The notes: generated by a model not told the origin, from the letters alone. Positions 22,158 to 62,633 are shown, counted from the stretch's first letter. The stretch: DNA of 64,000 nucleotides from a virus (IMGVR_UViG_2634166419_000001:9824-73823), one strand, 5' to 3'. A program made the numbers and translations.

Positions 22158-22870
22158 TAGATATTAATAAAGCTATCGATTATATGTACCAACTAAAAAA
22201 TCGTGGTGTTACTTACAGTATGTCAGGTAGTCGTATCGGTACAGATGGGACAGCAGATTGCTCAGGCGCAGTCTATATTTCACTTGTTAAAGGTGGAGCA
22301 AAACCGCATAGTTATCCAGTTAACACAGAGAGCGAACACGCATGGTTAATCGCCAACGGTTTTGAGTTAATAGCTTTTAATAAATCATGGAATATGCAAC
22401 GTGGAGATGTGTTGATTTTCGGACTCAAAGGACAATCCGCAGGTGCAGGAGGACATACAGCTATTGCGGTTGACCACAACAACGTAATTCATTGTAATTA
22501 CGCACACAACGGGGTTAGTGTTAATCCTGAGACGACCATGCCATACAGTATGGGTTGGTATGTTTATCGTTATAAAGGTGCCAAACCTAATCCACAACCA
22601 CAAGCAAAACCGCAGCCTACAGGCATTCACTGGATTAAAGAAGAATGGCACTTTACATTAAGCGAACGCATTAAATTGCGAACAGCGCCAAACACATCGG
22701 CTACAATCATTGCAGAATTGCAACCAGGTGATGTGGTTAAATATGATGCATATTGCTATAGTGGCGGCTACGTGTGGATTCGTCAAAAGCGTGGAAATGG
22801 CTATGGGTATTTAGCTACTGGTCAATGCGTAGGAAACAAACGCACAAGTTACTGGGGGTCGTTTAATTAA
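22154..22870 (+). CDS. Endolysin (Amidase_5 / NlpC-P60-like catalytic domain + SH3b)
   Basis: YSM...DCSG...GAGGHT...IHCNY; PQ linker; SH3-type C-terminus. Confidence 0.92.
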   Translation: MIDINKAIDYMYQLKNRGVTYSMSGSRIGTDGTADCSGAVYISLVKGGAKPHSYPVNTESEHAWLIANGFELIAFNKSWNMQRGDVLIFGLKGQSAGAGGHTAIAVDHNNVIHCNYAHNGVSVNPETTMPYSMGWYVYRYKGAKPNPQPQAKPQPTGIHWIKEEWHFTLSERIKLRTAPNTSATIIAELQPGDVVKYDAYCYSGGYVWIRQKRGNGYGYLATGQCVGNKRTSYWGSFN

Positions 22871-22873
22871 ACG

Positions 22874-22902
22874 TTGACCACGCGATTAATCAGTGATATA
22901 TT
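22874..22902 (+). promoter_or_regulatory. Sigma-A promoter downstream of the lysin
   Basis: TTGACC-17 nt-TATATT with TGn extension. Confidence 0.55.
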
Positions 22903-22952
22903 TAAAACACCTAAATAATATTTAATCATATTATTGTAGGCCGTTTTCACAT

Positions 22953-22987
22953 AGCCCTAGCCATTCGTGGTTAGGGCTTATTTTTTT
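22953..22987 (+). terminator. Rho-independent terminator
   Basis: AGCCCTAGCCA-TTCG-TGGTTAGGGCT followed by a T-run. Confidence 0.85.
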
Positions 22988-23335: not shown

Positions 23336-24271
23336 ATGGAAGGCATTTTACCTTTATGGAAAGAACGTGGCTTAACGAGTCATGACTGTGTATTTAAGTT
23401 ACGCAAAATTTTACATATGAAAAAGATTGGTCATAGCGGGACTTTGGATCCTGATGTTGATGGCATTTTACCAATCTGTATCGGACGAGCGACTAAGGTT
23501 GTTGAATTTTTGACGGATTCTGGAAAAGTATATGAAGGCGAAATTACTCTAGGCTATTCGACGACGACAGAGGATGCGAGTGGGGAGATTGTTGATTTAA
23601 CACCCGTTGAAAAAGTTCTGTCAAATGAATTGATTGATAGCACAATGCAGACTTTTATTGGTGAGATTACGCAAATTCCACCCATGTATTCAGCAGTTAG
23701 AGTGAATGGTAAGCGATTATATGAATATGCACGTAATGGCGAAACTGTTGAAAGACCTGTCAGAAAAGCTCAAATTTATCGCTTTCAAAGAATCACGGAA
23801 CCGGTCTTTGATGCGCAAAAACACACGCTATCTTGGCGCTTTCAGGTAGCTTGTGGCAAAGGTACTTATGTTCGTACGCTAGCTGTTGATTTAGGGAAAA
23901 AATTAGGCTTTGCTGCTCATATGTCCGATTTAACACGGATAAAAAGTGGTGGTTTTACCAAAGAGCAAGCCGTAACTTTAGACCAAGTAGCTCAAGCGAT
24001 GGCAAACAATGAGGTAGAAAAGCTGCTTTTACCCATTGAGTATGGGGTTCGTGATTTTCCACGCATTGATATTTCTGAAGAGTTGACCAAAAAAGTGATG
24101 AATGGGATGCGGATTCCGTATTGGCAATTTGGTTTTAATACTTGTCCAGATCGTCCAATCGCCTTATATTATAACAATCAGGTATTAAGTATCTATGAAG
24201 TAAGTCCAAGTGACAAAAATAAGCTTAAACCACAGAAAATGTTAAGAACGCAATTAGAAATGAAGGAATAA
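23336..24271 (+). CDS. truB: tRNA pseudouridine(55) synthase
   Basis: GHSGTLDP, PPMYSAV, GTYVRTL. Confidence 0.97.
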   Translation: MEGILPLWKERGLTSHDCVFKLRKILHMKKIGHSGTLDPDVDGILPICIGRATKVVEFLTDSGKVYEGEITLGYSTTTEDASGEIVDLTPVEKVLSNELIDSTMQTFIGEITQIPPMYSAVRVNGKRLYEYARNGETVERPVRKAQIYRFQRITEPVFDAQKHTLSWRFQVACGKGTYVRTLAVDLGKKLGFAAHMSDLTRIKSGGFTKEQAVTLDQVAQAMANNEVEKLLLPIEYGVRDFPRIDISEELTKKVMNGMRIPYWQFGFNTCPDRPIALYYNNQVLSIYEVSPSDKNKLKPQKMLRTQLEMKE

Positions 24272-24276
24272 TAGTT

Positions 24277-25230
24277 ATGAATATCATTGAATTAAGACAT
24301 CCGTTTGAAAAAGAACGCGTAATCAAGGAAGAGGTTGTTTTGGTGCTAGGCTTTTTTGACGGGGTACATCGCGGACATCAAGCAGTGATTGAACAAGGGA
24401 AAAAACTAGCAAAAGAAAAGAATCTGAAACTAGCACTGATGACTTTTAACCAACACCCATCCATTGTTTTTCAAAAAATGTCTAAAGAAACGATGACCTA
24501 TTTAACGAGCATGAATCAAAAAGCGCAATTGTTTGAAAAAGCTGGGGTGGATTTATTATATGTGGTTGATTTTACTTCAGCCTTTGCAAAATTAACGCCC
24601 GAAGAATTTATCGAACAATATATCATTGGGTTACATGCTAAAGTAGTTGTGGCTGGATTTGACTATACATTTGGCTATCAAGGAAAAGCAACAATGACAG
24701 ATTTAGCGCAATTAGCGAACCAACGCTTTGAAGTAATCGAAGTGCCTGAATTAAGCGAACATGGACAAAAGGTTAGTTCGACCGCCATTCGCCAAGCTTT
24801 GGCAAAAGGCGATATGCAAGCAGTCAATGAATTATTAGGCTATCCTTATACGATAGAAGGAACAGTGATGCATGGCGATGCGCGTGGCCGAACACTGGGA
24901 TTTCCTACAGCGAATATTCGTTTTGCCCCAACGACGCGCTTACCAATCGAAGGCGTGTATGTTTGTGAATTTAAAGTGGGGAATACCTGGCATCAAGCAA
25001 TGGGATCAATTGGCCATAATGATACGTTTGGAGAAGGCCGTAAATTAACAGTAGAGGTCTATATTTTAGATTTTCATCAAGAAATTTATGGAGAATTTGT
25101 GGAAGTGCGTTGGTTACATCTACTCCGTGAACAAATTAAATTTGATGGAGCTGAGCGTTTGATTCAACAACTCCATCAAGATGAGGTAGATACAAGAGCA
25201 TATTTTGCGACCTTAGCGAAGGAATCATGA
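24277..25230 (+). CDS. ribF: Bifunctional riboflavin kinase / FAD synthetase
   Basis: GFFDGVHRGH, SSTAIR, GRTLGFPTAN. Confidence 0.97.
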   Translation: MNIIELRHPFEKERVIKEEVVLVLGFFDGVHRGHQAVIEQGKKLAKEKNLKLALMTFNQHPSIVFQKMSKETMTYLTSMNQKAQLFEKAGVDLLYVVDFTSAFAKLTPEEFIEQYIIGLHAKVVVAGFDYTFGYQGKATMTDLAQLANQRFEVIEVPELSEHGQKVSSTAIRQALAKGDMQAVNELLGYPYTIEGTVMHGDARGRTLGFPTANIRFAPTTRLPIEGVYVCEFKVGNTWHQAMGSIGHNDTFGEGRKLTVEVYILDFHQEIYGEFVEVRWLHLLREQIKFDGAERLIQQLHQDEVDTRAYFATLAKES

Positions 25231-25422
25231 TTTTTGAACATTAATTAGCTGAAATTCTTCGCTATCAGGCACTTTTATGATGAGAAATCCGTCTGGCAAA
25301 GTCGCAGGGGAAACGTCTTTGATATTTTTTCCGCTTGCAATCTGTGCCATACGGATTAATTCTTTTTCATCTTTGCTGCTGGCTACCAGATTTCCGAGAT
25401 TAAAAAGGGCATTTTCTTCCAT
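25225..25422 (-). CDS. Small hypothetical protein (65 aa)
   Basis: Perfect AAGGAGGTGA RBS on the minus strand; fills the ribF-hemW gap. Confidence 0.6.
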   Translation of the reverse strand: MEENALFNLGNLVASSKDEKELIRMAQIASGKNIKDVSPATLPDGFLIIKVPDSEEFQLINVQKS

Positions 25423-25472
25423 GACAATCACCTCCTTGTGTATATTATATCAAAAATGAGAAAGAAAGGGGG

Positions 25473-26621
25473 ATGGAAATGTTAGAGGCGGTTTCAAGTT
25501 ATATTCATATACCTTTTTGTGAGCATATCTGTTATTATTGCGATTTTAATAAAGTCTTTTATGAAGGACAACCCGTAGATGAGTACCTAGAAAAACTGGA
25601 TTTGGAAATGAAATTATGGATAGAAAAATATCCGCAACAACAAACACCAACCATCTACATTGGGGGAGGGACGCCAACTTCTTTAAATGATGCTCAGTTA
25701 CGTTCCTTATTAACAAGCGTAACCAAATATTTTGATGTGACGACAACCAAAGAATTTACTGTTGAAGCGAACCCAGGAGATTTAACAGAAAATAAACTTC
25801 ATATTATGCAAGAATTTGGGGTCAATCGGTTATCAATGGGTGTGCAGACTTTTAATGACCGCTTGCTAAAGAAAATTGGTCGGAAGCATACGGTTAAAGA
25901 TGTGGATGATACACTGAACTTTTTAGCGAAGAATCATTTTGATAATGTGAGTATTGATTTGATTTATGCTTTACCAGGTCAGACGCAGCAAGATTTTGAT
26001 GAGACCTTAAAGCAAGCACTTAGTTATGACTTGCCACATTACTCGATGTATTCTTTGATTTTGGAAAATAAGACGATGTTTATGAATTGGGTGCGCAAAG
26101 GTCGATTAGAATTACCTAGCCAGGAAGAAGAGGCGGGAATGTTTGCCTTGGCGATGGATGTGATGTGTCAAAAAGGTTATGAGCAGTATGAAGTTTCAAA
26201 CTTTGCTAAACCAGGCTTTCAGTCACAGCACAACCTTGTTTACTGGAATAATGAGTACTACTTTGGCTTCGGCGCTGGGGCTAGTGGATATGTCGACAAA
26301 GTAAGATATAAAAATCATGGCCCGATTCAACATTATTTAAATCCTTTACGAAACCAACAATTGCCCATTTTCTCTGAAGAAACCTTAGATCAAAAAGCAC
26401 GTATGGAAGAGGAGATGTTTTTAGGGCTCCGTAAAGCACAAGGCGTCTCCATTGCGCACTTTAATGAGAAATTTGGTGTTGATTTCCATCAAATATACGG
26501 TTCTGTTGTTGGAAATTATGTATCTAAAGGATTACTCAATCAAACGGATAACGGCTATATTCAACTAACCAAAAAAGGACTTTTTCTAGGGAATGAAGTA
26601 TTTGAGGGATTCTTACTTTAG
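25473..26621 (+). CDS. hemW: Radical SAM heme chaperone (HemN-like)
   Basis: YIHIPFCEHICYYCDF and HNLVYW. Confidence 0.95.
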   Translation: MEMLEAVSSYIHIPFCEHICYYCDFNKVFYEGQPVDEYLEKLDLEMKLWIEKYPQQQTPTIYIGGGTPTSLNDAQLRSLLTSVTKYFDVTTTKEFTVEANPGDLTENKLHIMQEFGVNRLSMGVQTFNDRLLKKIGRKHTVKDVDDTLNFLAKNHFDNVSIDLIYALPGQTQQDFDETLKQALSYDLPHYSMYSLILENKTMFMNWVRKGRLELPSQEEEAGMFALAMDVMCQKGYEQYEVSNFAKPGFQSQHNLVYWNNEYYFGFGAGASGYVDKVRYKNHGPIQHYLNPLRNQQLPIFSEETLDQKARMEEEMFLGLRKAQGVSIAHFNEKFGVDFHQIYGSVVGNYVSKGLLNQTDNGYIQLTKKGLFLGNEVFEGFLL

Positions 26622-27004: not shown

Positions 27005-28174
27005 TCATTGACTGCCATTTTGAATGCCATTGACAAAATCGACGAACTTATCCAAAGTGCCGACTTCGTATTCTTTAGATAAGTGACCATACGTGTCCAT
27101 AGTCACGGTAATGGATCCGTGGCGCAGACGAGTTTGCACCTCCTTAAGGTTAGCACCTGCCTCGATTAAAAAACTCGCGTGCGTGTGCCTGGTTGCGTGG
27201 TTGCCATAAAAAGGCACGCCCGCGTTTTTGGTTGCTCTTCTGAGTTGATAATAAACATCAGAGGAAAATACCCAGTCGCCCTCAAGTTTGCTAAAAATAG
27301 GCGGCTCGCCTGTTAAGCCAATTGCTAAACGGGCCTTTTTCTTATACGCTCGCCACGTTTTTAAAATCCTTAATGTTTGCTCATCAACGGGTAACACTGC
27401 AACACTAGCCTTTGTTTTAGGTTTGCCAACAGTCAGCTTACTATCAACAAGCTTGAGCGTTTTGTCAATGTTTAAGGTTTTAGCCTTAAAATCTATATCG
27501 GACCATTCGAGCGCGAGAGCCTCATTGATGCGCAAGCCAGTGAAGAAAAGTAAACGAAACAGCGCGTACATGAAATAACCATCATAATCAGATTGGTTAT
27601 CTTTTAGATACGCCATAAGTGTATTAAAATCTTGTTTAGCGTACACTTTAACGCGTTTGTGAGCATCTCCTTTAGGCTTAATAACAGACTCCATTGGGTT
27701 AATACTTATCAAGTCCATGGTAATGGCGTATTTAAAGATACGACTAGCCTTGCATGTCAGTGCTCCGAGTGCTGAGTATTGTAAATACCAATCATTCACC
27801 GCCTGTTGGCATTCCACCCTTGTGATGTCCTTAATAGGTCGGTCACCAAATTTAGGGTATAGATAGTTTTTTAAGATGTTTTTGGTTCCTTGATACGTTA
27901 CATCCTGCACGGTTAACTTGTAGCTGGTTAACCAAAGCTCGGCCACCTCTTTAAAAGTTAAGCTATCTATGCTATCATTTTCTTGTGAGGCCCACGTATC
28001 TGCATCAAATTCAGCGAGTAACTGACTGCAGGCGCGTTGGGCTTGTTTTTTTGTCTCAAAGCCACGCCTTGTGGTCTTGATACGCTTTCCTGTTTTCGGG
28101 TCAGTACCAAGATAAGCGGAAAATTGCCACGCTTCTTGGCCGTTCTTTTTGGTGTATTTTTTAAAATTTGCCAT
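27005..28174 (-). CDS. int: Tyrosine integrase
   Basis: TGLRINE, HATRHTHA, LRH and DTYGH catalytic motifs; N-terminal arm-binding domain. Confidence 0.96.
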   Translation of the reverse strand: MANFKKYTKKNGQEAWQFSAYLGTDPKTGKRIKTTRRGFETKKQAQRACSQLLAEFDADTWASQENDSIDSLTFKEVAELWLTSYKLTVQDVTYQGTKNILKNYLYPKFGDRPIKDITRVECQQAVNDWYLQYSALGALTCKASRIFKYAITMDLISINPMESVIKPKGDAHKRVKVYAKQDFNTLMAYLKDNQSDYDGYFMYALFRLLFFTGLRINEALALEWSDIDFKAKTLNIDKTLKLVDSKLTVGKPKTKASVAVLPVDEQTLRILKTWRAYKKKARLAIGLTGEPPIFSKLEGDWVFSSDVYYQLRRATKNAGVPFYGNHATRHTHASFLIEAGANLKEVQTRLRHGSITVTMDTYGHLSKEYEVGTLDKFVDFVNGIQNGSQ

Positions 28175-38625: not shown

Positions 38626-38699
38626 TATGGCATATTCAGGTAGTTGATAGTGAAAACAATATAAGACAGCAAGTTGATTTCGAAGGTAGTGAAGAAATA

Positions 38700-38784
38700 A
38701 GCTATCAAGTATGCTCTATTCCCAAGAAGCTCCCACTTCAAGCGTTAAGAACCGTTAGGTTTAGCTAAGTGGTGAGTAGTTCAC
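38700..38784 (+). mobile_element. IS200/IS605-family right-end remnant (omegaRNA 3' part)
   Basis: TTCCCAAGAAGCTCCCACTT...AAGTGGTGAGTAGTTCAC hairpin ending in TCAC; no tnpA or tnpB present. Confidence 0.7.
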
Positions 38785-38809
38785 TTATATCATAAAAGGG
38801 GCGATTTGG

Positions 38810-48131: not shown

Positions 48132-48312
48132 AAAAAAGAGCGAGGCAAAATCCGAGCCTACTTACAGCAAGTTAGAGATTTTGCAAGCGACAGACGCCTT
48201 TACGCGCATCGAACGAGATTTTTTATCTGTCTACCTATCAGACGGAGAGGTCTACTCGATTACCGACGCGCGCGAGGTACTAAATAAAAAATTAAAGGAG
48301 GCTATTAAATAA
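48121..48312 (+). CDS. Small phage tail protein
   Basis: AGGAGGAG RBS; precedes the sheath gene. Confidence 0.6.
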   Translation: MATKKKSEAKSEPTYSKLEILQATDAFTRIERDFLSVYLSDGEVYSITDAREVLNKKLKEAIK

Positions 48313-49616
48313 TGGCTGGAGGTATTTGGACAGCGCAGGACAAGGTACGTCCAGGCGCTTATATCAATGTACAAGGCAATGGTAAGGTCGGCACTAGCTC
48401 TGCAGTTAGCGGCATCATGACCATCCCATTACCTTTAAAATTTGGACCAGTTGGCAAGGTCCTAGAGTTAGATGCAACAAGTGATTTAACAATTTTAGGT
48501 AACACGTTGAGCGATCCTGAGTTACTGTTAATACGTGAGGCATTTAAACGCGCAAGCAAAGTCTTGCTTTACCGTGTAGGTGGTGGGACAAAAGCGACTA
48601 AGACAGAGGGCACTTTAACTGTTACTGCACAATATCCAGGCACACGCGGAAATGCTATCTCAGTGGTGGTTACTGCTAATGTTAACCCCGAGTCGACTTT
48701 TAATGTGGTGACTTACCTTGACGGAGTAGCAGTAGACACGCAAACAGTCAAGAAAGTGGAAGAGTTACAAGCTAATAAGTTGGTTACGTTTAGCGGTACT
48801 GGAGCAGCCGCTAAAGCAACCATCGCTTTAGAGGGCGGTACCGATACGGAAGCGCAAGCCAACGATTACGCGAAATATTTTGAAGCTATCCAAGTGTACG
48901 AATTTAACACGATGGCGCTACCTATCTCTGATGATGGAATTAAGGCAACCGCAGCAGCCTTTATCAAACGATTACGTGATGAAGAGGGCTACAAAGTGCA
49001 GTTAGTGGTGGCTAACCATGATGCTAACCACGAGGCAGTGATTAACGTATCTAATGGGGTTGTTTTAGCAGACGGAACCAAGTTGACAGCGGAACAGTGT
49101 ACTGCTTGGGTGGCTGGAGCAACTGCAAGTGCTGGTGTGGCTGGAAGTTTAACGTATGCCACTTACGACGGTGCAGTTGACGCGAACCCTCGCATGATTA
49201 ATAGCGACATTATTGACGCGTTAAAAGCTGGTAAGTTTATTTTTACCGAAAAACGCGGAACCGCAGTCGTCGAACAAGACATTAACAGCTTGCATACCTT
49301 TACCAAAGAAAAAGGTAAGGACTTTAGTAAGAACCGTGTCTTACGTGTATTAGACGACATCGCGAACAGCTCTAAAAAGACCTTTGAAGATAATTACATC
49401 GGCAAGGTTAACAATAACACAGACGGTCGTGAGTTATTTAAAGCAGACCGCATCGGCTACTTTGATCGTTTAATGGGTATGGGCGCAATCGAAAACTTTG
49501 TGCCGGATGACATTACCATCGCGCAAGGCGATAGCAAAGACAGCGTATTGCTAGATGTTAAAGTCCAACCAGTAGACGCAATGGAAAAATTATACATGAC
49601 GGTAGTCGTCGAGTAA
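48312..49616 (+). CDS. Tail sheath protein (XkdK-like)
   Basis: MAGGIWTAQDKVRPGAYIN...KNRVLRVLD...PVDAMEKLY. Confidence 0.93.
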   Translation: MAGGIWTAQDKVRPGAYINVQGNGKVGTSSAVSGIMTIPLPLKFGPVGKVLELDATSDLTILGNTLSDPELLLIREAFKRASKVLLYRVGGGTKATKTEGTLTVTAQYPGTRGNAISVVVTANVNPESTFNVVTYLDGVAVDTQTVKKVEELQANKLVTFSGTGAAAKATIALEGGTDTEAQANDYAKYFEAIQVYEFNTMALPISDDGIKATAAAFIKRLRDEEGYKVQLVVANHDANHEAVINVSNGVVLADGTKLTAEQCTAWVAGATASAGVAGSLTYATYDGAVDANPRMINSDIIDALKAGKFIFTEKRGTAVVEQDINSLHTFTKEKGKDFSKNRVLRVLDDIANSSKKTFEDNYIGKVNNNTDGRELFKADRIGYFDRLMGMGAIENFVPDDITIAQGDSKDSVLLDVKVQPVDAMEKLYMTVVVE

Positions 49617-58280: not shown

Positions 58281-59059
58281 TAACCTTACTAGAGTTAAAG
58301 GAGTTACTGCCTACCTGGTACACGGGTCTATTAGAGTTTGAGACGCTGATGCAAATCGAACAGCACTTGTTAGAGGACCTCGTGGCTAGTATCGAGCGCG
58401 CACAAGGCAACTTGTATGTATCGACTGCAGATAGTGAGACGATTGCACTCTACGAGCGCATGTTACGTATTACTAGACAAGCTGATGACACGTTAGACAT
58501 GCGACGCTTTAGAGTATTAACTCGCCTAGCTAGTCAAAAGCCGTACACGATACGTTATTTGACTGAGATGTTAAACAGTATCGGTACAGATATTACAGTC
58601 ACCTGCTTGTATGATGAGTACACTTTGCTCATTAACAGCGCGTTTGAACGTAAAGGGCAGATGGTTGATGTTGATTATTTAATCCGGACGATTGTCCCAG
58701 CTAACCTGCAGGTAGACGTCCGTAACGTGTTACGGAGCAACGCGGCCAATCTAAAATTAAAACAAGCGTCGGCTTTGACTAGCGATGAGGTGATTTACAT
58801 TACCCACGACTTTACGAGTCAACAACATACGCAGCAGGTCTTGGTCGCAGCAGCTGCTAACGTAGCTGTTGGTCAAGCTACCTTAACGCATGACTTTAAG
58901 ACCGGTCAAAGCACAACGGTTAGTGCTGTCATCGGAGGTGGCTCGACCACCGTTGCTACATTAACAAGTACACAAGATTATAAGTCTGTAATTACTATCT
59001 CAGACACATTAGACACTGCTGGAGGAGTAGTAACGGCAGACTTTTACACTATTGATTAA
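58277..59059 (+). CDS. Baseplate protein (XkdU / DUF2313-like)
   Basis: LPTWY...TLDMRRFRVL...IVPANL. Confidence 0.78.
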   Translation: MITLLELKELLPTWYTGLLEFETLMQIEQHLLEDLVASIERAQGNLYVSTADSETIALYERMLRITRQADDTLDMRRFRVLTRLASQKPYTIRYLTEMLNSIGTDITVTCLYDEYTLLINSAFERKGQMVDVDYLIRTIVPANLQVDVRNVLRSNAANLKLKQASALTSDEVIYITHDFTSQQHTQQVLVAAAANVAVGQATLTHDFKTGQSTTVSAVIGGGSTTVATLTSTQDYKSVITISDTLDTAGGVVTADFYTID

Positions 59060-59074
59060 GGAGAGTGAGTAGAG

Positions 59075-60841
59075 TTGGAATTAAACCAATCAGTAATTAC
59101 TAACAAGGGGCGCACGCTAATGGCCAAGCTGTTATCAGGCCGTGCGACGGCTACCTTTACAAAAATCTCAATTAGCTCGACGGTTTACGCATCTGGAGAC
59201 CTAGCTGCCTTAACGGCCTTATCTAACGTTAAGCAGACAGCTACCTGCCAAGCTAAACCTAATAACGGGGCTACCGTGAGCGTGGAGGCAGCATTTAACA
59301 ATACCGGTCTTACCGCAGGCTACGATGTCAACACGATCGGTGTTTACGCCACAGATCCTGATGAGGGTGAGATTTTATATGCTGTGGCCACAGCTAAGCA
59401 AAATGGCTACATGCCTGCAGATACTGGTGTAAGTAAAACGGGCTTAACCGTCGCCTTTTATACAGAGGTCGGTAACGCGAGTCAAGTCAACTTAACGGTT
59501 GAACCTGGAGCAGTAGCAACCAAATTAGACGTTAAAAATCTACAGGCCAATATCGAGGACTTACAAGGCTTTGTCGGTTACAATGATGCCGATGTTTATG
59601 GCGTTGAGGTAGATATGGTTAATAAGACCTTTAAACGTTTAGCCGGTGCAGTTAATCGTACACCGGGGGCAGGCTTTGATAGCATTAAAGCCTTTGGTGG
59701 CCGTAAACGTTGTATTTTAACTAATGAGGGTAAGGTCGTTGCTTATTACGGCGAGCCTGGATATACCGAGACCGGAGCGCTCTTACAGCAAGTATCAAAA
59801 GGATCTGATACGTTTACTGTTGGGACTAAAGTGCAAGTGATGGTCGAGCAGCCATTATTCTATTACAAGGTGAGTCCAATCGAGCTTGCACCGATTACTG
59901 ACGGTAAAGGTTACCACATGCGCAAAGGGCGCTACTATGTATCGGATAAGCCTAAAGCAGGTTTTAAAATACATCCAGCCTTTATCGTCAACGGAGCTGT
60001 TAAGGACAAGATTTACTTATCTGCTTATGAGGGCTGCATTTACGATGTATCAACTAATAGCTACGTATTAAATGACGAGCAGATTGCAGATTTTGATAAT
60101 GATATGTTATCTAGTATCGCAGGGGCTAAGCCTGCGAGCGGCTTAACACAAAACTTGACACGTGCGAACGTACGTAAGCTTGCACAAAAACGTGGTACGG
60201 GATGGCAGCAAGCTTATGCTGCAACAATTTCAGCTACACAGTTGTTATTTTTAGTTGAATATGCTAAATTTAATATGCAAGATGTTTTAGGTCCAGGCGC
60301 GACAGGTAAAACAGATGATAGTACCTCTAACTTGGCTGAACCTACAGGGGCTACTACAACGTTAGGCAATCAGTCTGGTCATGTGACAAATGGCAACAAT
60401 ATCCAAATTGTATCGTATCGTGGTGAGGAGAACCTGTACGGTAATATTTGGAAATTTATCGATGGAATTAACGTCATGGCCAATGGTATCCATGCAGCGT
60501 ATGTGGCCGACCACGACTTTAACGACAAGCAAAGCACGGGCAGTTACGCAGATGTCGGCTTTACTTTAGCCAAGACAAATGGCTACGTTAGCGCATTTGG
60601 TTACAGTCCAGAGTTTGACTGGCTATTTTTAACGTCAGAAACAACAGGTAACTCAAGCGTTCCTGTCGGGGACTACTTCTGGCAAAACTACGCAGCTACC
60701 GATGATGGCGGCTGGAGAACCGTTCAGCTCGGTGCGAATTGGGACGGTGGCTCTGTTGCGGGTGGTTTCCGCTGGCGTGTGAGTGATCCGTCGGTTAATC
60801 GGGGCCGTGGTCTGTCGGGGCGCCTGGTGTATGCGGCCTAA
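59075..60841 (+). CDS. Tail fibre / receptor-binding protein; DGR target with a C-terminal CLec-like domain
   Basis: Fibre-type N-terminus (ITNKGRTLMAK); GEENLYGNIW; C-terminal GANW...GRL encoded by the VR. Confidence 0.9.
   Translation: MELNQSVITNKGRTLMAKLLSGRATATFTKISISSTVYASGDLAALTALSNVKQTATCQAKPNNGATVSVEAAFNNTGLTAGYDVNTIGVYATDPDEGEILYAVATAKQNGYMPADTGVSKTGLTVAFYTEVGNASQVNLTVEPGAVATKLDVKNLQANIEDLQGFVGYNDADVYGVEVDMVNKTFKRLAGAVNRTPGAGFDSIKAFGGRKRCILTNEGKVVAYYGEPGYTETGALLQQVSKGSDTFTVGTKVQVMVEQPLFYYKVSPIELAPITDGKGYHMRKGRYYVSDKPKAGFKIHPAFIVNGAVKDKIYLSAYEGCIYDVSTNSYVLNDEQIADFDNDMLSSIAGAKPASGLTQNLTRANVRKLAQKRGTGWQQAYAATISATQLLFLVEYAKFNMQDVLGPGATGKTDDSTSNLAEPTGATTTLGNQSGHVTNGNNIQIVSYRGEENLYGNIWKFIDGINVMANGIHAAYVADHDFNDKQSTGSYADVGFTLAKTNGYVSAFGYSPEFDWLFLTSETTGNSSVPVGDYFWQNYAATDDGGWRTVQLGANWDGGSVAGGFRWRVSDPSVNRGRGLSGRLVYAA
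60722..60829 (+). repeat. DGR variable repeat (VR)
   Basis: 108-nt ungapped match to 60920-61027; all 20 differences lie at TR adenines. Confidence 0.96.
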
Positions 60842-60919
60842 TTAAACAACTTGTTGGCAATAATACGATAGCAGTTTAACGATTAAAAAACTTTCCTTTG
60901 CTCCCGTTTTGGGCCTGCC

Positions 60920-61027
60920 GTTCAACTCGGTACGAATTGGAACAATGGCTCTAATGCGGGTGGTTTCAACTGGAATGTGAATAATCCGTCGGTTAATCGG
61001 AACCGTAATCTGTCAGGGCACCTGGTA
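60920..61027 (+). ncRNA. DGR template repeat (TR)
   Basis: Non-coding copy of the VR with 11 AAY codons and 28 adenines. Confidence 0.96.
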
Positions 61028-61160
61028 CATGCAATACACTTAAAAATAACCTTTAGCCCTATTGCCATGCCTCTTGGCAAAACATAGATTTTAAGTTACC
61101 CCCGTGTGAGTAGCACGGTCGAAAGCGCGGGAAACTTGCATACAAAGGAGCGATTAAATT

Positions 61161-62204
61161 TTGAAAAGAGTCGGACATTTGTACGCTCAAATTACAGATA
61201 TACACAATCTAGCTTTAGCACATCAACATGCTAAACGCGGAAAAGGCTGGTATAGAGAGGTGTTAGCGATTGACGCAAACCCTGAGCCTTACTTAACTAA
61301 ATTACAGACACAATTACTCACTCGGACCTATCAAACGAGTGAGTATTTTACTTTTACCAAGCGTGAGGGTAAAAAGGAGCGCTTGATTTACAAGCTACCC
61401 TACTATCCTGATCGCGTGTGTCAATGGGCAATTATCCAAGTCATTGAGCCGTATCTTTTAAAATATATGACGGACGATACGTACTCAGCCCTGCCTGGTC
61501 GAGGGATACATTCTTGCTTGGCCAAAGTGCAAAAGGCCATGCGCAAGGATCCAGAGGAGACTAAGTATTGTCTTAAGATTGATGCGCGTAAATTTTATCC
61601 GTCTATCAATCATGCGATTTTAAAAGCATGCTACCGTCGTTTATTTAAAGATGCGGACTTGCTTTGGCTATTAGACGAGATCATTGACTCGACTCCAGGC
61701 GAGACAGGTATACCGATTGGTAATTATCTGTCTCAATATAGCGGTAACCTCTACTTAGCACGCTTTGACCATTATGTTAAAGAGGTCCTGCAGGTTAAAT
61801 ACTACTACCGCTACATGGACGATATGGTCTTTTTTGGCAGCAGTAAACAAGCGCTGCATCGCCTTAAGCAAGCGGTCGAGCGCTATCTAGCTGAGGAGTT
61901 AAAACTGCAGCTAAAGGATAATTGGCAGGTCTTTCCGACACAAGTAAGAGGAGTAGACTTTGTCGGCTATCGCATTTTTAAAGACTACACGCTGCTGCGT
62001 AAGTCAACTGCGCTTAATTTTAAAAAGCGTATGCGTGCCATCAATAAAAAAGTTAAGCAAGGCCAACCTTTAAGCGATAGCGATTATGCCTCTATCCAGG
62101 CCTATCGCGGCTGGCTAAACCACTGTAATAGCTACAGATTGACGCGTAAATATCTCACTCCTTTAACAGCAGCTATCGCTGCGTACGAAACTAAAAAATC
62201 ATAA
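61161..62204 (+). CDS. DGR reverse transcriptase
   Basis: KERLI, PDRVCQ, GRGIH, LKID...FYPSI, GIPIGNYLSQ, YRYMDD, DFVGY; AAAGGAG RBS with TTG start. Confidence 0.96.
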   Translation: MKRVGHLYAQITDIHNLALAHQHAKRGKGWYREVLAIDANPEPYLTKLQTQLLTRTYQTSEYFTFTKREGKKERLIYKLPYYPDRVCQWAIIQVIEPYLLKYMTDDTYSALPGRGIHSCLAKVQKAMRKDPEETKYCLKIDARKFYPSINHAILKACYRRLFKDADLLWLLDEIIDSTPGETGIPIGNYLSQYSGNLYLARFDHYVKEVLQVKYYYRYMDDMVFFGSSKQALHRLKQAVERYLAEELKLQLKDNWQVFPTQVRGVDFVGYRIFKDYTLLRKSTALNFKKRMRAINKKVKQGQPLSDSDYASIQAYRGWLNHCNSYRLTRKYLTPLTAAIAAYETKKS

Positions 62205-62221
62205 AAAAAGAGGTGATCTAC

Positions 62222-62467
62222 ATGATCGAGCACGGTAAAGTAGAGAGTACAGTACAGCCACAAGCACTGATGATTGATGATTACAGTGTTTGGGTGGCAA
62301 AAGACATCGAGCAAGTCAAGACAGAGGAGTTTGAGGGCTATCGGTATAGCCTAACACAGTACTCAAAAGACGAGTACATCATGGAGTTGGCTGCGCGAGA
62401 CAATGCAAAAGCAGATGCACTTATGGAGCTATCAGAGTTGGTAGCTGCGATGTCAGGAGGGAATTAA
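62222..62467 (+). CDS. Small tail-fibre-associated protein (XkdW-like position)
   Basis: GAGGTG RBS; coiled C-terminus DALMELSEL; does not resemble Avd by eye. Confidence 0.55.
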   Translation: MIEHGKVESTVQPQALMIDDYSVWVAKDIEQVKTEEFEGYRYSLTQYSKDEYIMELAARDNAKADALMELSELVAAMSGGN

Positions 62468-62468
62468 A

Positions 62469-62633
62469 ATGGTCAACTTTTTTATTTATCAAATCATTGA
62501 CGATCGCTGCACATTGCAGGACATCCATCCACTATGGCGCTCTAAAGTGCAAGCACGTTTAAGGGAGTTAGGTCTTGACGATAACGGTCGGCCACTACCT
62601 ACAGATACTGATGACGAGGGACAAGCGATGTAG
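62469..62633 (+). CDS. XkdX/CD1375-like small protein (not in the ORF track)
   Basis: AGGAGG RBS; TLQDIHPLWRSKVQARL. Confidence 0.65.
   Translation: MVNFFIYQIIDDRCTLQDIHPLWRSKVQARLRELGLDDNGRPLPTDTDDEGQAM

What the first reader, a model, noticed from the sequence alone, without database searches (positions are those of the whole stretch)
59075..62204. Intact DGR diversifying the tail fibre of a contractile-tailed prophage
Seen: VR 60722-60829 aligns without gaps to TR 60920-61027 (offset 198). All 20 mismatches over 108 nt fall at TR adenines; 20 of the 28 A's are changed and the TR has 11 AAY codons. Identity breaks down just after (TAT GCG GCC vs CAT GCA ATA), as expected for IMH/IMH*. An intact RT with GIPIGNYLSQ and YMDD follows. 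Established: this is BPP-1-type mutagenic retrohoming onto a CLec-fold C-terminus. Inference: the phage performs tropism switching in an enterococcal host.
Basis: partly seen in the sequence, partly recalled or inferred. Interest (0 to 1): 0.85.

Follow-up and report, generated by a model that had tools for sequence, protein, structure and literature searches.

The report
Tail-fibre diversity-generating retroelement without Avd
A temperate contractile-tailed phage carries a genuine, recently used retroelement that rewrites about 14 codons at the tip of its tail fibre; it is a correct call but an ordinary member of a well-known kind of system.

Summary
VR 60722-60829 and TR 60920-61027 align without gaps. 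All 20 mismatches sit on TR adenines (chance about 1e-15), and the TR has 11 AAY codons. An intact RT follows. Its nearest solved relative by sequence is 8ub7_A (E 2.6e-33).

The target is the only fibre-like gene of a PBSX-like myovirus tail module. Its predicted C-terminal domain matches the Thermus DGR variable protein TaqVP (Z 27.3).

A metagenome relative, 93.5% identical, differs in the TR at 6 places. Each phage's VR follows its own TR at all 6. Another 12 VR differences all fall on shared TR adenines. The element therefore worked after the two phages split.

It is not a BPP-1-type cassette. No avd is present, and an RT-17-like RNA with covariation support lies between TR and RT. This matches architecture A of Wu et al. 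2018.

In relatives the last ~15 nt of the repeat is A in TR and G in VR almost without exception. That looks like IMH/IMH*, not mutagenesis.

The host belongs to the family of Enterococcus timonensis; its genus is not named.

The scan had already reported such Avd-less tail-fibre DGRs in 8 other windows.

The parts
59075..60841 (+). DGR target gene: 588-aa tail fibre, the only fibre-like gene between the baseplate genes and the lysis cassette
   Evidence: Open frame. phrog_5302 'tail protein' E 3.3e-145; phrog_7037 'tail fiber protein' 8.9e-36 on residues 3-158. Pfam Phage_tail_fib 22.9 bits, just under its 23-bit cut-off.
59075..59494 (+). N-terminal fibre or baseplate-attachment domain (residues 1-140)
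   Evidence: Model range 1-140 matches the HFTV1 tail chain 9h4p_BD (Z 9.6, rmsd 2.4, 120 aligned). Range 17-132 matches Listeria phage A511 gp105 (Z 7.5) and the phi812 arm segment (Z 7.5).
59696..60838 (+). Predicted C-type-lectin (FGE-subtype) domain, residues 208-588, with the VR at its very C-terminus
   Evidence: AlphaFold2 model, mean pLDDT 89.3. TaqVP 5vf4_C Z 27.3, rmsd 2.8 over 268 residues, model range 208-588. A profile of 43 homologues against PDB sequences gives 5vf4_A as the only hit, E 5.3e-9.
60720..60829 (+). Variable repeat (VR)
   Evidence: Ungapped match to the TR; 20 of 20 mismatches at TR adenines.
60737..60812 (+). Randomised core of the VR (pairs with TR 60935-61010)
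   Evidence: In 162 distinct VR/TR pairs of relatives, TR adenines in these columns are kept in 39.8% of cells and otherwise become G, T or C.
60815..60838 (+). IMH-like 3' end of the VR (G-rich; pairs with the A-rich TR 61013-61036)
   Evidence: In columns TR 61013-61027, A is kept in only 4.2% of cells and 92.3% of changes are to G, including at synonymous sites. The first non-A mismatch is at 60830.
60918..61027 (+). Template repeat (TR): non-coding, 28 A, 11 AAY codons in the VR frame
   Evidence: There are 14 variable codons, about 6.9e14 protein variants, and no stop codon is reachable.
61063..61145 (+). Structured RNA between TR and RT, like Rfam RT-17 (RF03020)
   Evidence: 37.8 bits (gathering score 40.4), E 8.2e-6 over the full model 1-95. 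13 of 19 related loci score over the gathering score at the same place. 10 predicted pairs, 9 with compensatory changes; 96.5% of cells paired against 78.7% in shuffles, 0 of 500 shuffles as high.
61161..62204 (+). DGR reverse transcriptase (347 aa, TTG start after AAGGAG)
   Evidence: RVT_1 E 1.6e-19; phrog_1423 E 3.5e-128. Best solved relative 8ub7_A, E 2.6e-33, against 1.8e-14 for a group II intron RT. IGNYLSQ and YMDD present. 40 synonymous and 6 non-synonymous codon differences from L133.
62213..62467 (+). Acidic 84-aa protein directly after the RT; a fibre-module gene, probably not part of the DGR
   Evidence: pI 4.3. Of 78 loci with a homologue and enough upstream DNA, 67 have a full RT directly upstream, 4 an RT fragment, 6 the fibre gene with no RT, and 1 neither.
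48312..49616 (+). Tail sheath (context: contractile tail)
   Evidence: phrog_279 'tail sheath' E 4.8e-139.
27005..28174 (-). Integrase at the left end of the DGR-bearing prophage (context)
   Evidence: phrog_1 integrase E 2.4e-74. Host truB, ribF and a HemN-like gene lie just to the left.

Best explanation
This is a functional, or at least recently functional, diversity-generating retroelement of the accessory-free type (target-VR, ~80-nt spacer, TR, structured RNA, RT). It sits in a temperate PBSX-like myovirus integrated in a bacterium of the Enterococcus timonensis family.

Inferred mechanism, by analogy with the studied Bordetella phage system:
1. The TR and the RT-17-like RNA downstream are transcribed.
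2. The RT copies the TR into cDNA and misincorporates opposite template adenines.
3. The cDNA replaces the VR, from a fixed 3' boundary (the G-rich IMH-like end of the VR) towards a looser 5' boundary.

The result rewrites up to 14 codons (11 of them AAY) on the C-terminal face of the C-type-lectin domain at the fibre tip. The likely function is to change which host surface structure the phage binds.

Shown here: the repeat pair and its adenine rule; the intact RT under purifying selection; the predicted fold; the conserved RNA; the absence of Avd; and transfer of TR changes into the VR since a close relative diverged. Inferred: the biochemical steps, present-day activity, and that the fibre tip binds the receptor.
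For: - Adenine rule: 20 of 20 mismatches at TR adenines, P about 1e-15; 11 AAY codons; 25 of 28 A at codon positions 1-2. No stop codon is reachable and about 6.9e14 protein variants are possible.
- RT: open, with IGNYLSQ and YMDD. Nearest solved sequence is 8ub7_A, E 2.6e-33 over residues 2-319; group II intron and retron-type RTs score 1e-12 to 1e-14. Five Bordetella phage records are among 107 phage records matching at E<=1e-20.
- Use after divergence: L133 is 93.5% identical over 4,882 aligned bases. It has 17 of 17 VR/TR mismatches at TR adenines. Six TR differences between the two phages are each mirrored in that phage's own VR. Twelve VR-VR differences lie at shared TR adenines and none at non-A columns. 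The 71-nt spacer 60846-60916 is identical.
- Selection on the RT: 40 synonymous against 6 non-synonymous codon differences from L133.
- Fold: TaqVP Z 27.3. The window's VR aligns to TaqVP 342-384, and the paper gives TaqVP's VR as residues 341-381 (passages read, PMC6328139).
- Family context: 97 of 132 RT-relative loci show an A-biased repeat pair. In 92.6% of 162 distinct pairs the VR-TR offset is at most 300 nt.
- RNA.
- In the gut metagenome run X3, the 6 VR differences among the 40 rows shown all lie at TR-adenine columns (151 further rows were not shown).
Against: - No direct evidence of activity today. The two assemblies that hold the stretch (X1, X2; either may be the source of this DNA) are identical over 59000-62300, VR included. 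They are contigs, which hide minor variants.
- The only raw-read run offered (X23) holds no read of the stretch, so it tests nothing.
- No Avd-family protein was found in the record (PF05635 and TIGR02436, E<=1). Yet Avd together with the RT is described as necessary for adenine mutagenesis in the Bordetella phage system (passage in PMC6328139). The mechanism here must differ in that respect.
- No hairpin that beats shuffles follows the VR (z 0.25).
- The RT-17 match in the window itself is 2.6 bits under Rfam's gathering score.
- Ten of the A>G changes are shared by the window and L133, so not every adenine difference reflects an independent event. Three of the window's 20 mismatches (60817, 60822, 60829) lie in columns that are fixed A/G across the family.
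Confidence: 0.88

Rival explanations
1. Fossil element. The cassette looks intact but no longer homes, for example because a needed cofactor or cis element is lost. The VR/TR pattern would then be a record of past activity only.
For: X1 and X2 contigs carry an identical VR. No Avd. The window's RT-17 match is below the gathering score. At TR 61028 the window and L133 have C where the 5 nearest of the relatives shown have A, and the VR keeps T there.
Against: The RT is open and under purifying selection (40 synonymous, 6 non-synonymous). TR changes were copied into the VR after the split from a 93.5%-identical relative. Avd is also missing from 5 of 5 nearly complete related phage records that carry A-biased VR/TR pairs, so its absence is a trait of the lineage and not a loss here. 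X1 and X2 may be one strain and are consensus contigs.
Confidence: 0.1
2. The DGR diversifies the fibre tip for a purpose other than switching the host receptor, for instance binding to mucus, to other cells, or to a non-receptor ligand.
For: No binding data exist. DGR targets of other gut prophages have been proposed to serve adherence to the environment rather than entry (discussion passage of PMC11792537).
Against: The target is the only fibre-like gene between the baseplate genes and the lysis genes. Its N-terminal domain resembles the baseplate-attached fibre parts of A511 and phi812. Its C-terminal domain shares the fold of Mtd, whose entries are titled 'Major Tropism Determinant'.
Confidence: 0.1
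3. Not a retroelement product. The two repeats are an ordinary duplication that diverged by point mutation or was homogenised by DNA gene conversion.
For: None beyond the existence of a repeat.
Against: All 20 mismatches fall at A of one copy only (P about 1e-15). The same holds in L133 (17 of 17). 97 of 132 related loci show an A-biased pair (at least 80% of mismatches at A of one copy), in nearly all of them the copy next to the RT. Only the copy inside the ORF varies between relatives at shared-A columns.
Confidence: 0.01

Closest known systems
Accessory-free DGRs: architecture A (A1, TR-RT core with adjacent target) of Wu et al. 2018 (PMC5758913)
   Same: Order target(VR)-TR-RT on one strand with no accessory gene. 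The paper counts 75 of 372 DGRs in this architecture, and says its RT 'Lineage 3' lacks avd and may use a variant of retrohoming that does not need Avd (passages read). The phage association and a C-type-lectin VR also match.
   Different: I could not place this RT in their tree or assign their VR class (CLec1-3), because no reference sequences or supplements were consulted. The RT-17-like RNA and the fixed A/G 3' segment do not appear in the passages I read.
Bordetella phage BPP-1 DGR (mtd-avd-TR-brt)
   Same: Adenine-specific TR-to-VR differences; an AAY-rich TR; the VR at the C-terminus of a CLec-fold tail-fibre protein; a non-identical 3' end of VR and TR; a structured RNA between TR and RT. 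8ub7_A (328 aa, titled only 'Reverse transcriptase') is the nearest solved RT, E 2.6e-33. That 8ub7 is the Bordetella enzyme is my recollection; no call confirmed it (one search found no paper naming it).
   Different: No avd. No hairpin after the VR. The RNA matches RT-17, whereas Weinberg et al. place RT-10 in BPP-1. The fibre has a different N-terminal part and is far closer to TaqVP (Z 27.3) than to Mtd (Z 11.1). The phage is a myovirus of a Gram-positive host. Standing VRs of this family are G-skewed (59.4% of core changes). bRT-Avd cDNA in vitro misincorporates A>C>G opposite adenine, which corresponds to sense A>T, then A>G, then A>C.
TaqVP, variable protein of the Thermus aquaticus prophage DGR (PDB 5VF4; PMC6328139)
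   Same: Best structural match (Z 27.3, rmsd 2.8 A, 268 residues) and the only sequence-profile match among solved structures (E 5.3e-9). In both, the VR is at the very C-terminus.
   Different: TaqVP is a single-domain protein of 381 residues, and its DGR has an avd gene. Here the domain is fused to an N-terminal fibre domain and a linker (residues 1-207), and there is no avd. Sequence identity is 19%.
DGR-bearing prophages of gut Firmicutes, e.g. Faecalibacterium phage Pioen (PMC11792537)
   Same: A temperate phage of a gut Gram-positive host whose DGR target has an N-terminal domain like Listeria phage A511 gp105 (passages read; here Z 7.5 to 6hhk_A).
   Different: The passages place Pioen's variable region in DUF6273. 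The window's protein gave no such Pfam hit. No sequence comparison with Pioen was made here.

Membership tests
Diversity-generating retroelement (general) | Reverse transcriptase of the DGR kind | tested here: met
   IGNYLSQ and YMDD in the translation. That [I/L]GxxxSQ marks DGR RTs is recalled, not taken from a call. 8ub7_A E 2.6e-33 against 1.8e-14 for the best group II intron RT. Below NCBIfam cut-offs for group II, retron and DRT models. Bordetella phage RTs are among the phage hits at E<=1e-20.
Diversity-generating retroelement (general) | TR/VR near-repeat that differs (almost) only at TR adenines, with the VR inside an ORF | tested here: met
   20 of 20 mismatches at TR A, P about 1e-15. 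The VR lies in the last 40 codons of the 588-aa ORF; the TR is intergenic.
Diversity-generating retroelement (general) | One-way flow of information from TR to VR | tested here: met
   By comparison only. Six of 6 TR differences between the window and L133 are mirrored in each phage's own VR. Twelve VR differences lie at shared TR adenines and none at non-A columns. The direction is inferred from the adenine rule.
Diversity-generating retroelement (general) | IMH at the 3' end of the VR and a non-identical IMH* at the 3' end of the TR | tested here: inconclusive
   A conserved boundary pattern appears in 13 of 13 pairs inspected, and columns TR 61013-61027 are almost always A in TR and G in VR. 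Its function as a homing signal cannot be tested here.
Diversity-generating retroelement (general) | Observed RT-dependent adenine mutagenesis in a living population | not testable with these tools
   Only contigs were on offer for the runs that hold the stretch, and the one raw-read run holds none of it.
BPP-1-type cassette (avd-TR-RT; architecture B of Wu et al. 2018) | Avd accessory gene | tested here: not met
   PF05635 and TIGR02436: no match at E<=1 in the 73.8-kb record. 0 of 5 nearly complete related phage records. 0 of 3 closest host-like genomes. There are only 76 nt between the target's stop codon and the TR.
BPP-1-type cassette (avd-TR-RT; architecture B of Wu et al. 2018) | GC-rich inverted repeat just downstream of the VR's IMH | tested here: not met
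   DNA fold of 60800-60925: -14.5 kcal/mol, z 0.25, and 122 of 200 shuffles fold at least as well.
BPP-1-type cassette (avd-TR-RT; architecture B of Wu et al. 2018) | RT-10 RNA between TR and RT (Weinberg et al. 2017) | tested here: not met
   An Rfam scan of 60840-61260 at E<=1 returned RT-17 only. The RT-10 placement in BPP-1 comes from PMC5737381, section 22.
Accessory-free DGR, architecture A (Wu et al. 2018) | Core TR-RT with an adjacent target and no avd, HRDC, MSL or CH1 gene | tested here: met
   Gene order. Avd is absent. The only adjacent small gene (84 aa, acidic) also occurs next to fibre genes without any RT. HRDC, MSL and CH1 were not searched by name; Pfam gave nothing for the three small ORFs after the RT.
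Accessory-free DGR, architecture A (Wu et al. 2018) | RT falls in their avd-less 'Lineage 3' | not tested
   No reference RT sequences of that tree were at hand.
CLec-fold (FGE-subtype) DGR variable proteins | C-type-lectin fold with the VR forming the C-terminal face | tested here: met
   This rests on a predicted structure, not a solved one. pLDDT 89.3. TaqVP Z 27.3, TvpA 12.6, FGE 11.7, Mtd 11.1, all reaching model residue 588. The profile alignment puts the VR onto TaqVP 342-384.
Rfam RT-17 RNA (RF03020) | Score at or above the gathering score of 40.4 bits | tested here: inconclusive
   The window scores 37.8 bits over the full model. 13 of 19 related loci pass, at the same place between TR and RT. 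Both helices are kept in the window and show covariation across 30 sequences.

The most novel reading that the evidence does not exclude
In this Avd-less lineage the conserved RT-17-like RNA may do the job that the Avd protein does in the Bordetella phage system, namely hold and prime the template. The RT may also have its own error spectrum that favours C opposite template A, giving A>G in the gene. Finally, the homing signal may be written as a run of fixed A(TR)/G(VR) differences over the last ~15 nt of the repeat, including at synonymous sites. Together these would make a mechanistically distinct sub-type of mutagenic retrohoming.
Probability: 0.2. Interest if true: 0.5.

Novelty: new member of a known kind. 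Interest (0 to 1): 0.28.

Why it matters
It adds a well-supported tail-fibre DGR in a prophage of an Enterococcus-family host. Named examples seem scarce there. In the one full-text search made, the only listed paper naming Enterococcus in its title reported finding no DGR in its phage. The nearest named record is an Enterococcus timonensis prophage with an RT 64% identical.

The pair window/L133 is a clean natural experiment. TR substitutions were copied into the VR while the DNA between them stayed identical.

The family-wide columns give two testable leads for the poorly understood Avd-less DGRs:
- what replaces Avd, given a randomised core flanked by fixed A/G positions and a covarying RNA between TR and RT;
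- where homing starts.

As a kind of system it is already well known, and this scan had reported it on 8 other genomes.

Tried and rejected
- Megablast of 59075-62204 against 50,697 phage records found no match. Of the 25-kb stretch 27005-52000, only a 99-nt piece matched.
- Reads. X23 (raw reads, same species label) holds no read of the stretch, so it tests nothing. X3 (gut metagenome contigs) holds a fragmented relative. Overlapping contigs also occur outside the VR (60419-60571), so at least two strains are present and its VR contigs cannot be read as within-population DGR variation. X1 and X2 are identical consensus contigs.
- Hairpin after the VR: none beyond shuffles.
- Promoter and terminator scan of 60600-62600: 4 promoter-like sites against 3.1 expected. 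Of 5 terminator-like sites (1.7 expected), none lies between the VR and the RT start.
- The 84-aa ORF after the RT as a new DGR accessory protein: rejected as the main reading. It is acidic (pI 4.1-4.8 in 44 homologues), whereas Wu et al. give Avd a mean pI of 9.5. In 6 of 78 loci it follows a fibre gene with no RT, and in 4 more only RT fragments remain. It has no significant hit in PDB sequences (best E 0.21) and no hit in Pfam, NCBIfam or the phage collection.
- Avd in trans from the host: none in the 3 closest host-like genomes. The host's own genome is not held.
- The DGR in sister species: 0 of 3 closest genomes have this RT; the best is a 27%-identical 482-aa RT.
- Other Rfam families in the whole window at gathering score: none. 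tRNAs: none.
- Literature. 'RT-17' as a whole word gave only unrelated papers among the 10 listed of 37. '8UB7' gave 0 papers.
- Host genus.
- Not used: complex prediction, the search of protein representatives, the search for homologous proteins, the protein-atlas search.
Full report
**Observation.**
- At offset 198, VR 60722-60829 and TR 60920-61027 align without gaps. All 20 mismatches have A in the TR (17 to G, 2 to C, 1 to T). The TR stretch has 28 A.
- The chance that 20 of 20 mismatches fall on the 28 A columns of 108 is about 1e-15.
- In the frame of the target ORF the TR has 11 AAY codons, and 25 of its 28 A are at codon positions 1 or 2.
- Fourteen codons can vary, giving about 6.9e14 proteins, and no stop codon can arise.
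- The repeat starts two bases earlier than stated (60720/60918).
- After 60829 comes a T/C mismatch, four matches, and then loss of identity.
- The record holds no second VR.

**The genes.**
- ORF 59075-60841 (588 aa) matches phage tail and tail-fibre families: phrog_5302 at 3.3e-145, and phrog_7037 over residues 3-158. Pfam Phage_tail_fib scores 22.9 bits against a cut-off of 23.
- Upstream lie a sheath (phrog_279, 4.8e-139), a tube, an XkdN-like protein, a 1,337-aa tape measure, YQBQ-like, DUF2577, sheath initiator, Baseplate_J and Mu gp48-like genes.
- Downstream lie three small ORFs, a holin, and an Amidase_5/SH3_5 endolysin that runs off the end of the record.
- The tail is therefore contractile, and the target is the only fibre-like gene of the module.
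- ORF 61161-62204 (347 aa) is an RVT_1 protein with IGNYLSQ and YMDD. Its nearest solved relative by sequence is 8ub7_A (E 2.6e-33 over residues 2-319). Group II intron and retron-type RTs follow at 1e-12 to 1e-14. It stays below every NCBIfam cut-off for group II, retron and defence RTs.

**Fold of the target.** Pfam sees no lectin or FGE domain. A profile of 43 homologues taken from related loci finds one solved protein, 5vf4_A (E 5.3e-9). It aligns the window's VR to residues 342-384 of that chain.

An AlphaFold2 model built on the same alignment has mean pLDDT 89.3. Foldseek ranks the Thermus aquaticus DGR variable protein TaqVP first (E 3e-11), and Mtd of BPP-1 follows at about 1e-4. VIA-align gives these scores, all reaching the last residue:

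| Match | Z | Detail |
|---|---|---|
| TaqVP | 27.3 | rmsd 2.8 A, 268 residues, model 208-588 |
| TvpA | 12.6 | |
| Formylglycine-generating enzymes | about 11-12 | |
| Mtd | 11.1 | |

The TaqVP paper puts its VR at residues 341-381, the very C-terminus (passages read, PMC6328139). Residues 1-140 resemble fibre or baseplate-attachment parts: HFTV1 tail Z 9.6, A511 gp105 and the phi812 arm Z 7.5. The CLec claim is thus supported, on a prediction.

**Was it used?** A metagenome contig, L133, is 93.5% identical over 4,882 aligned bases. Its RT is 98% identical and its fibre 95% identical in protein.
- Its own VR and TR differ at 17 places, all TR adenines.
- The two TRs differ at 6 places, and at all 6 each phage's VR agrees with its own TR wherever that TR base is not A.
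- Twelve further VR-VR differences lie at columns where both TRs have A. None lies at a non-A column.
- The 71 bases 60846-60916 of the spacer between them are identical.
- One recombination tract cannot make matched changes in two places 198 nt apart, so TR information entered the VR after the split.
- The RT differs by 40 synonymous and 6 non-synonymous codons, which indicates purifying selection.

Direct evidence for activity today is lacking. The two assemblies that hold the stretch (either may be its source) are identical, and they are consensus contigs. The one raw-read run holds none of it. A gut metagenome holds at least two related strains, so its several VR contigs prove nothing. Still, the 6 VR differences among the 40 rows shown all sit at TR-adenine columns.

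**How it differs from BPP-1.**
- Only 76 nt separate the target's stop codon from the TR.
- Neither PF05635 nor TIGR02436 finds an Avd in the 73.8-kb record at E<=1.
- Avd is also absent from 5 of 5 related phage records that are 93-100% complete, and from the 3 closest host-like genomes.
- Among RT relatives, 97 of 132 loci show an A-biased repeat pair. In 92.6% of 162 distinct pairs the VR-TR offset is at most 300 nt, too short for a gene.
- Wu et al. 2018 describe exactly this. Architecture A has no accessory gene (75 of 372 DGRs), and an RT lineage lacks avd (passages read, PMC5758913).
- No hairpin follows the VR.

**The RNA between TR and RT.** Region 61063-61145 matches Rfam RT-17 over its whole length at 37.8 bits (gathering score 40.4; E 8.2e-6). 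Thirteen of 19 related loci pass the gathering score, each between TR and RT.

An alignment of 30 TR-to-RT spacers gives two helices and 10 pairs, 9 of them with compensatory changes. 96.5% of cells pair, against 78.7% in shuffles (0 of 500 as high) and 27-50% when partners are slid.

Weinberg et al. 2017 placed their RT-10 motif at this position in BPP-1, and speculated that other RT motifs serve other DGRs (section 22 read, PMC5737381). These loci bear that out for RT-17.

**The 3' end.** I aligned the TRs of 162 distinct pairs and laid each VR on its TR.

| Columns (window TR) | A kept | Of changes: G / T / C |
|---|---|---|
| Core, 60935-61010 | 39.8% | 59.4% / 23.5% / 17.1% |
| 3' segment, 61013-61027 | 4.2% | 92.3% to G |

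- The 3' pattern includes synonymous Leu and Val sites, so protein-level selection does not explain it.
- It holds with 79 representatives under 90% TR identity.
- I read this segment as the IMH (VR, G-rich) and IMH* (TR, A-rich) pair.
- Three of the window's 20 mismatches (60817, 60822, 60829) then belong to it rather than to mutagenesis.
- A few 5' columns behave alike (84% of changes to G), which I cannot explain.
- The G skew of the core differs from bRT-Avd cDNA in vitro, where A, then C, then G is misincorporated opposite adenine (passages read, PMC7826257). Standing VRs are filtered by selection and the pairs are not independent, so the enzyme's own spectrum is unknown.

**The 84-aa ORF after the RT.** It follows the RT in 57 of 211 RT-relative loci. 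It is acidic. Of 78 loci found through it, 6 have it straight after a fibre gene with no RT or TR, and 4 keep only RT fragments. It belongs to the fibre module, and the TR-RT unit is present or absent between the two genes.

**Host and setting.** The window is the right-hand 64 kb of an IMG/VR 'provirus' record. That record in fact holds two prophages:
- a siphovirus-like one up to 22870;
- then host truB, ribF and a HemN-like gene (23336-26621);
- then the integrase (27005-28174, minus strand) of the DGR phage.

The host genes are 65-69% identical to the Enterococcus timonensis genome. They are 92-98% identical to 6 of the 134 genomes of that genome's family group, with the next best at 71%. 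None of the 3 genomes in its genus group matches. NCBI files E. timonensis under Enterococcaceae.

The nearest named cassette is in E. timonensis (RT 64%, fibre 70%). The nearest named phage RT is Psychrobacillus phage Perkons at 52.5%. 'Enterococcal' is therefore right at family level, and the genus is unnamed.

**Verdict.** This is a correct call of a real, recently used DGR of the already described Avd-less type. Eight earlier reports of this scan describe the same kind on other genomes, and one notes adenines that always read G. It is a new member of a known kind and of modest interest.

Noticed in passing
window 1-28174: The IMG/VR 'provirus' record joins two prophages. A siphovirus-like one (capsid, tail tube, Sipho_tail, a 1,660-aa protein with Peptidase_S74, holin, Amidase_5 endolysin) ends near 22870. 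Host truB, ribF and a HemN-like radical-SAM gene follow at 23336-26621. Then comes the integrase of the DGR myovirus. Both prophages carry an Amidase_5 + SH3_5 endolysin.
   Followed up: partly
window 38687-38785: A 99-nt intergenic stretch is 98% identical to an unannotated intergenic stretch of the lytic Enterococcus faecalis phages EF1 and EF5, and 94% to the E. faecium phage EFP01. It is the only megablast match of the 25-kb stretch 27005-52000 in the phage collection. There is no Rfam match at E<=1, and its fold is not exceptional (z -1.57). What it is remains unknown.
   Followed up: partly
window 62213-62467 and loci L217, L222, L227, L255, L295, L296: An acidic protein of about 85 aa (invariant Y, K, D, I in a Y-x-K-D-E-Y-I motif; phrog_18126, function unknown) always follows the fibre gene. 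The TR-RT unit may or may not lie between them. L217 has a fibre 72% identical to the window's, but no TR or RT in the 7.2 kb held. This looks like presence/absence of the DGR core at one fixed site.
   Followed up: partly
TR columns 60915-60932 (5' end of the repeat) in 162 related VR/TR pairs: Several 5' columns also read G in the VR almost whenever the TR has A: 80 of 83 at 60920 and 50 of 53 at 60932. The IMH idea does not cover this end of the repeat.
   Followed up: no
L133 5888-5987 against window 22888-22987: The close relative of the DGR phage carries, about 1 kb past the end of its match to the window (L133 position 4873), 100 nt that are 93% identical to the stretch just after the endolysin of the window's other (siphovirus-like) prophage. 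This may be a shared module end or attachment region.
   Followed up: no
window 61028 (TR) and 60830 (VR): The window and L133 have C at this TR position, where the 5 nearest of the relatives shown have A. The VR keeps T (a Tyr codon) in both. This is a TR point change that was not passed to the VR, as expected if the position lies outside the transferred segment.
   Followed up: partly
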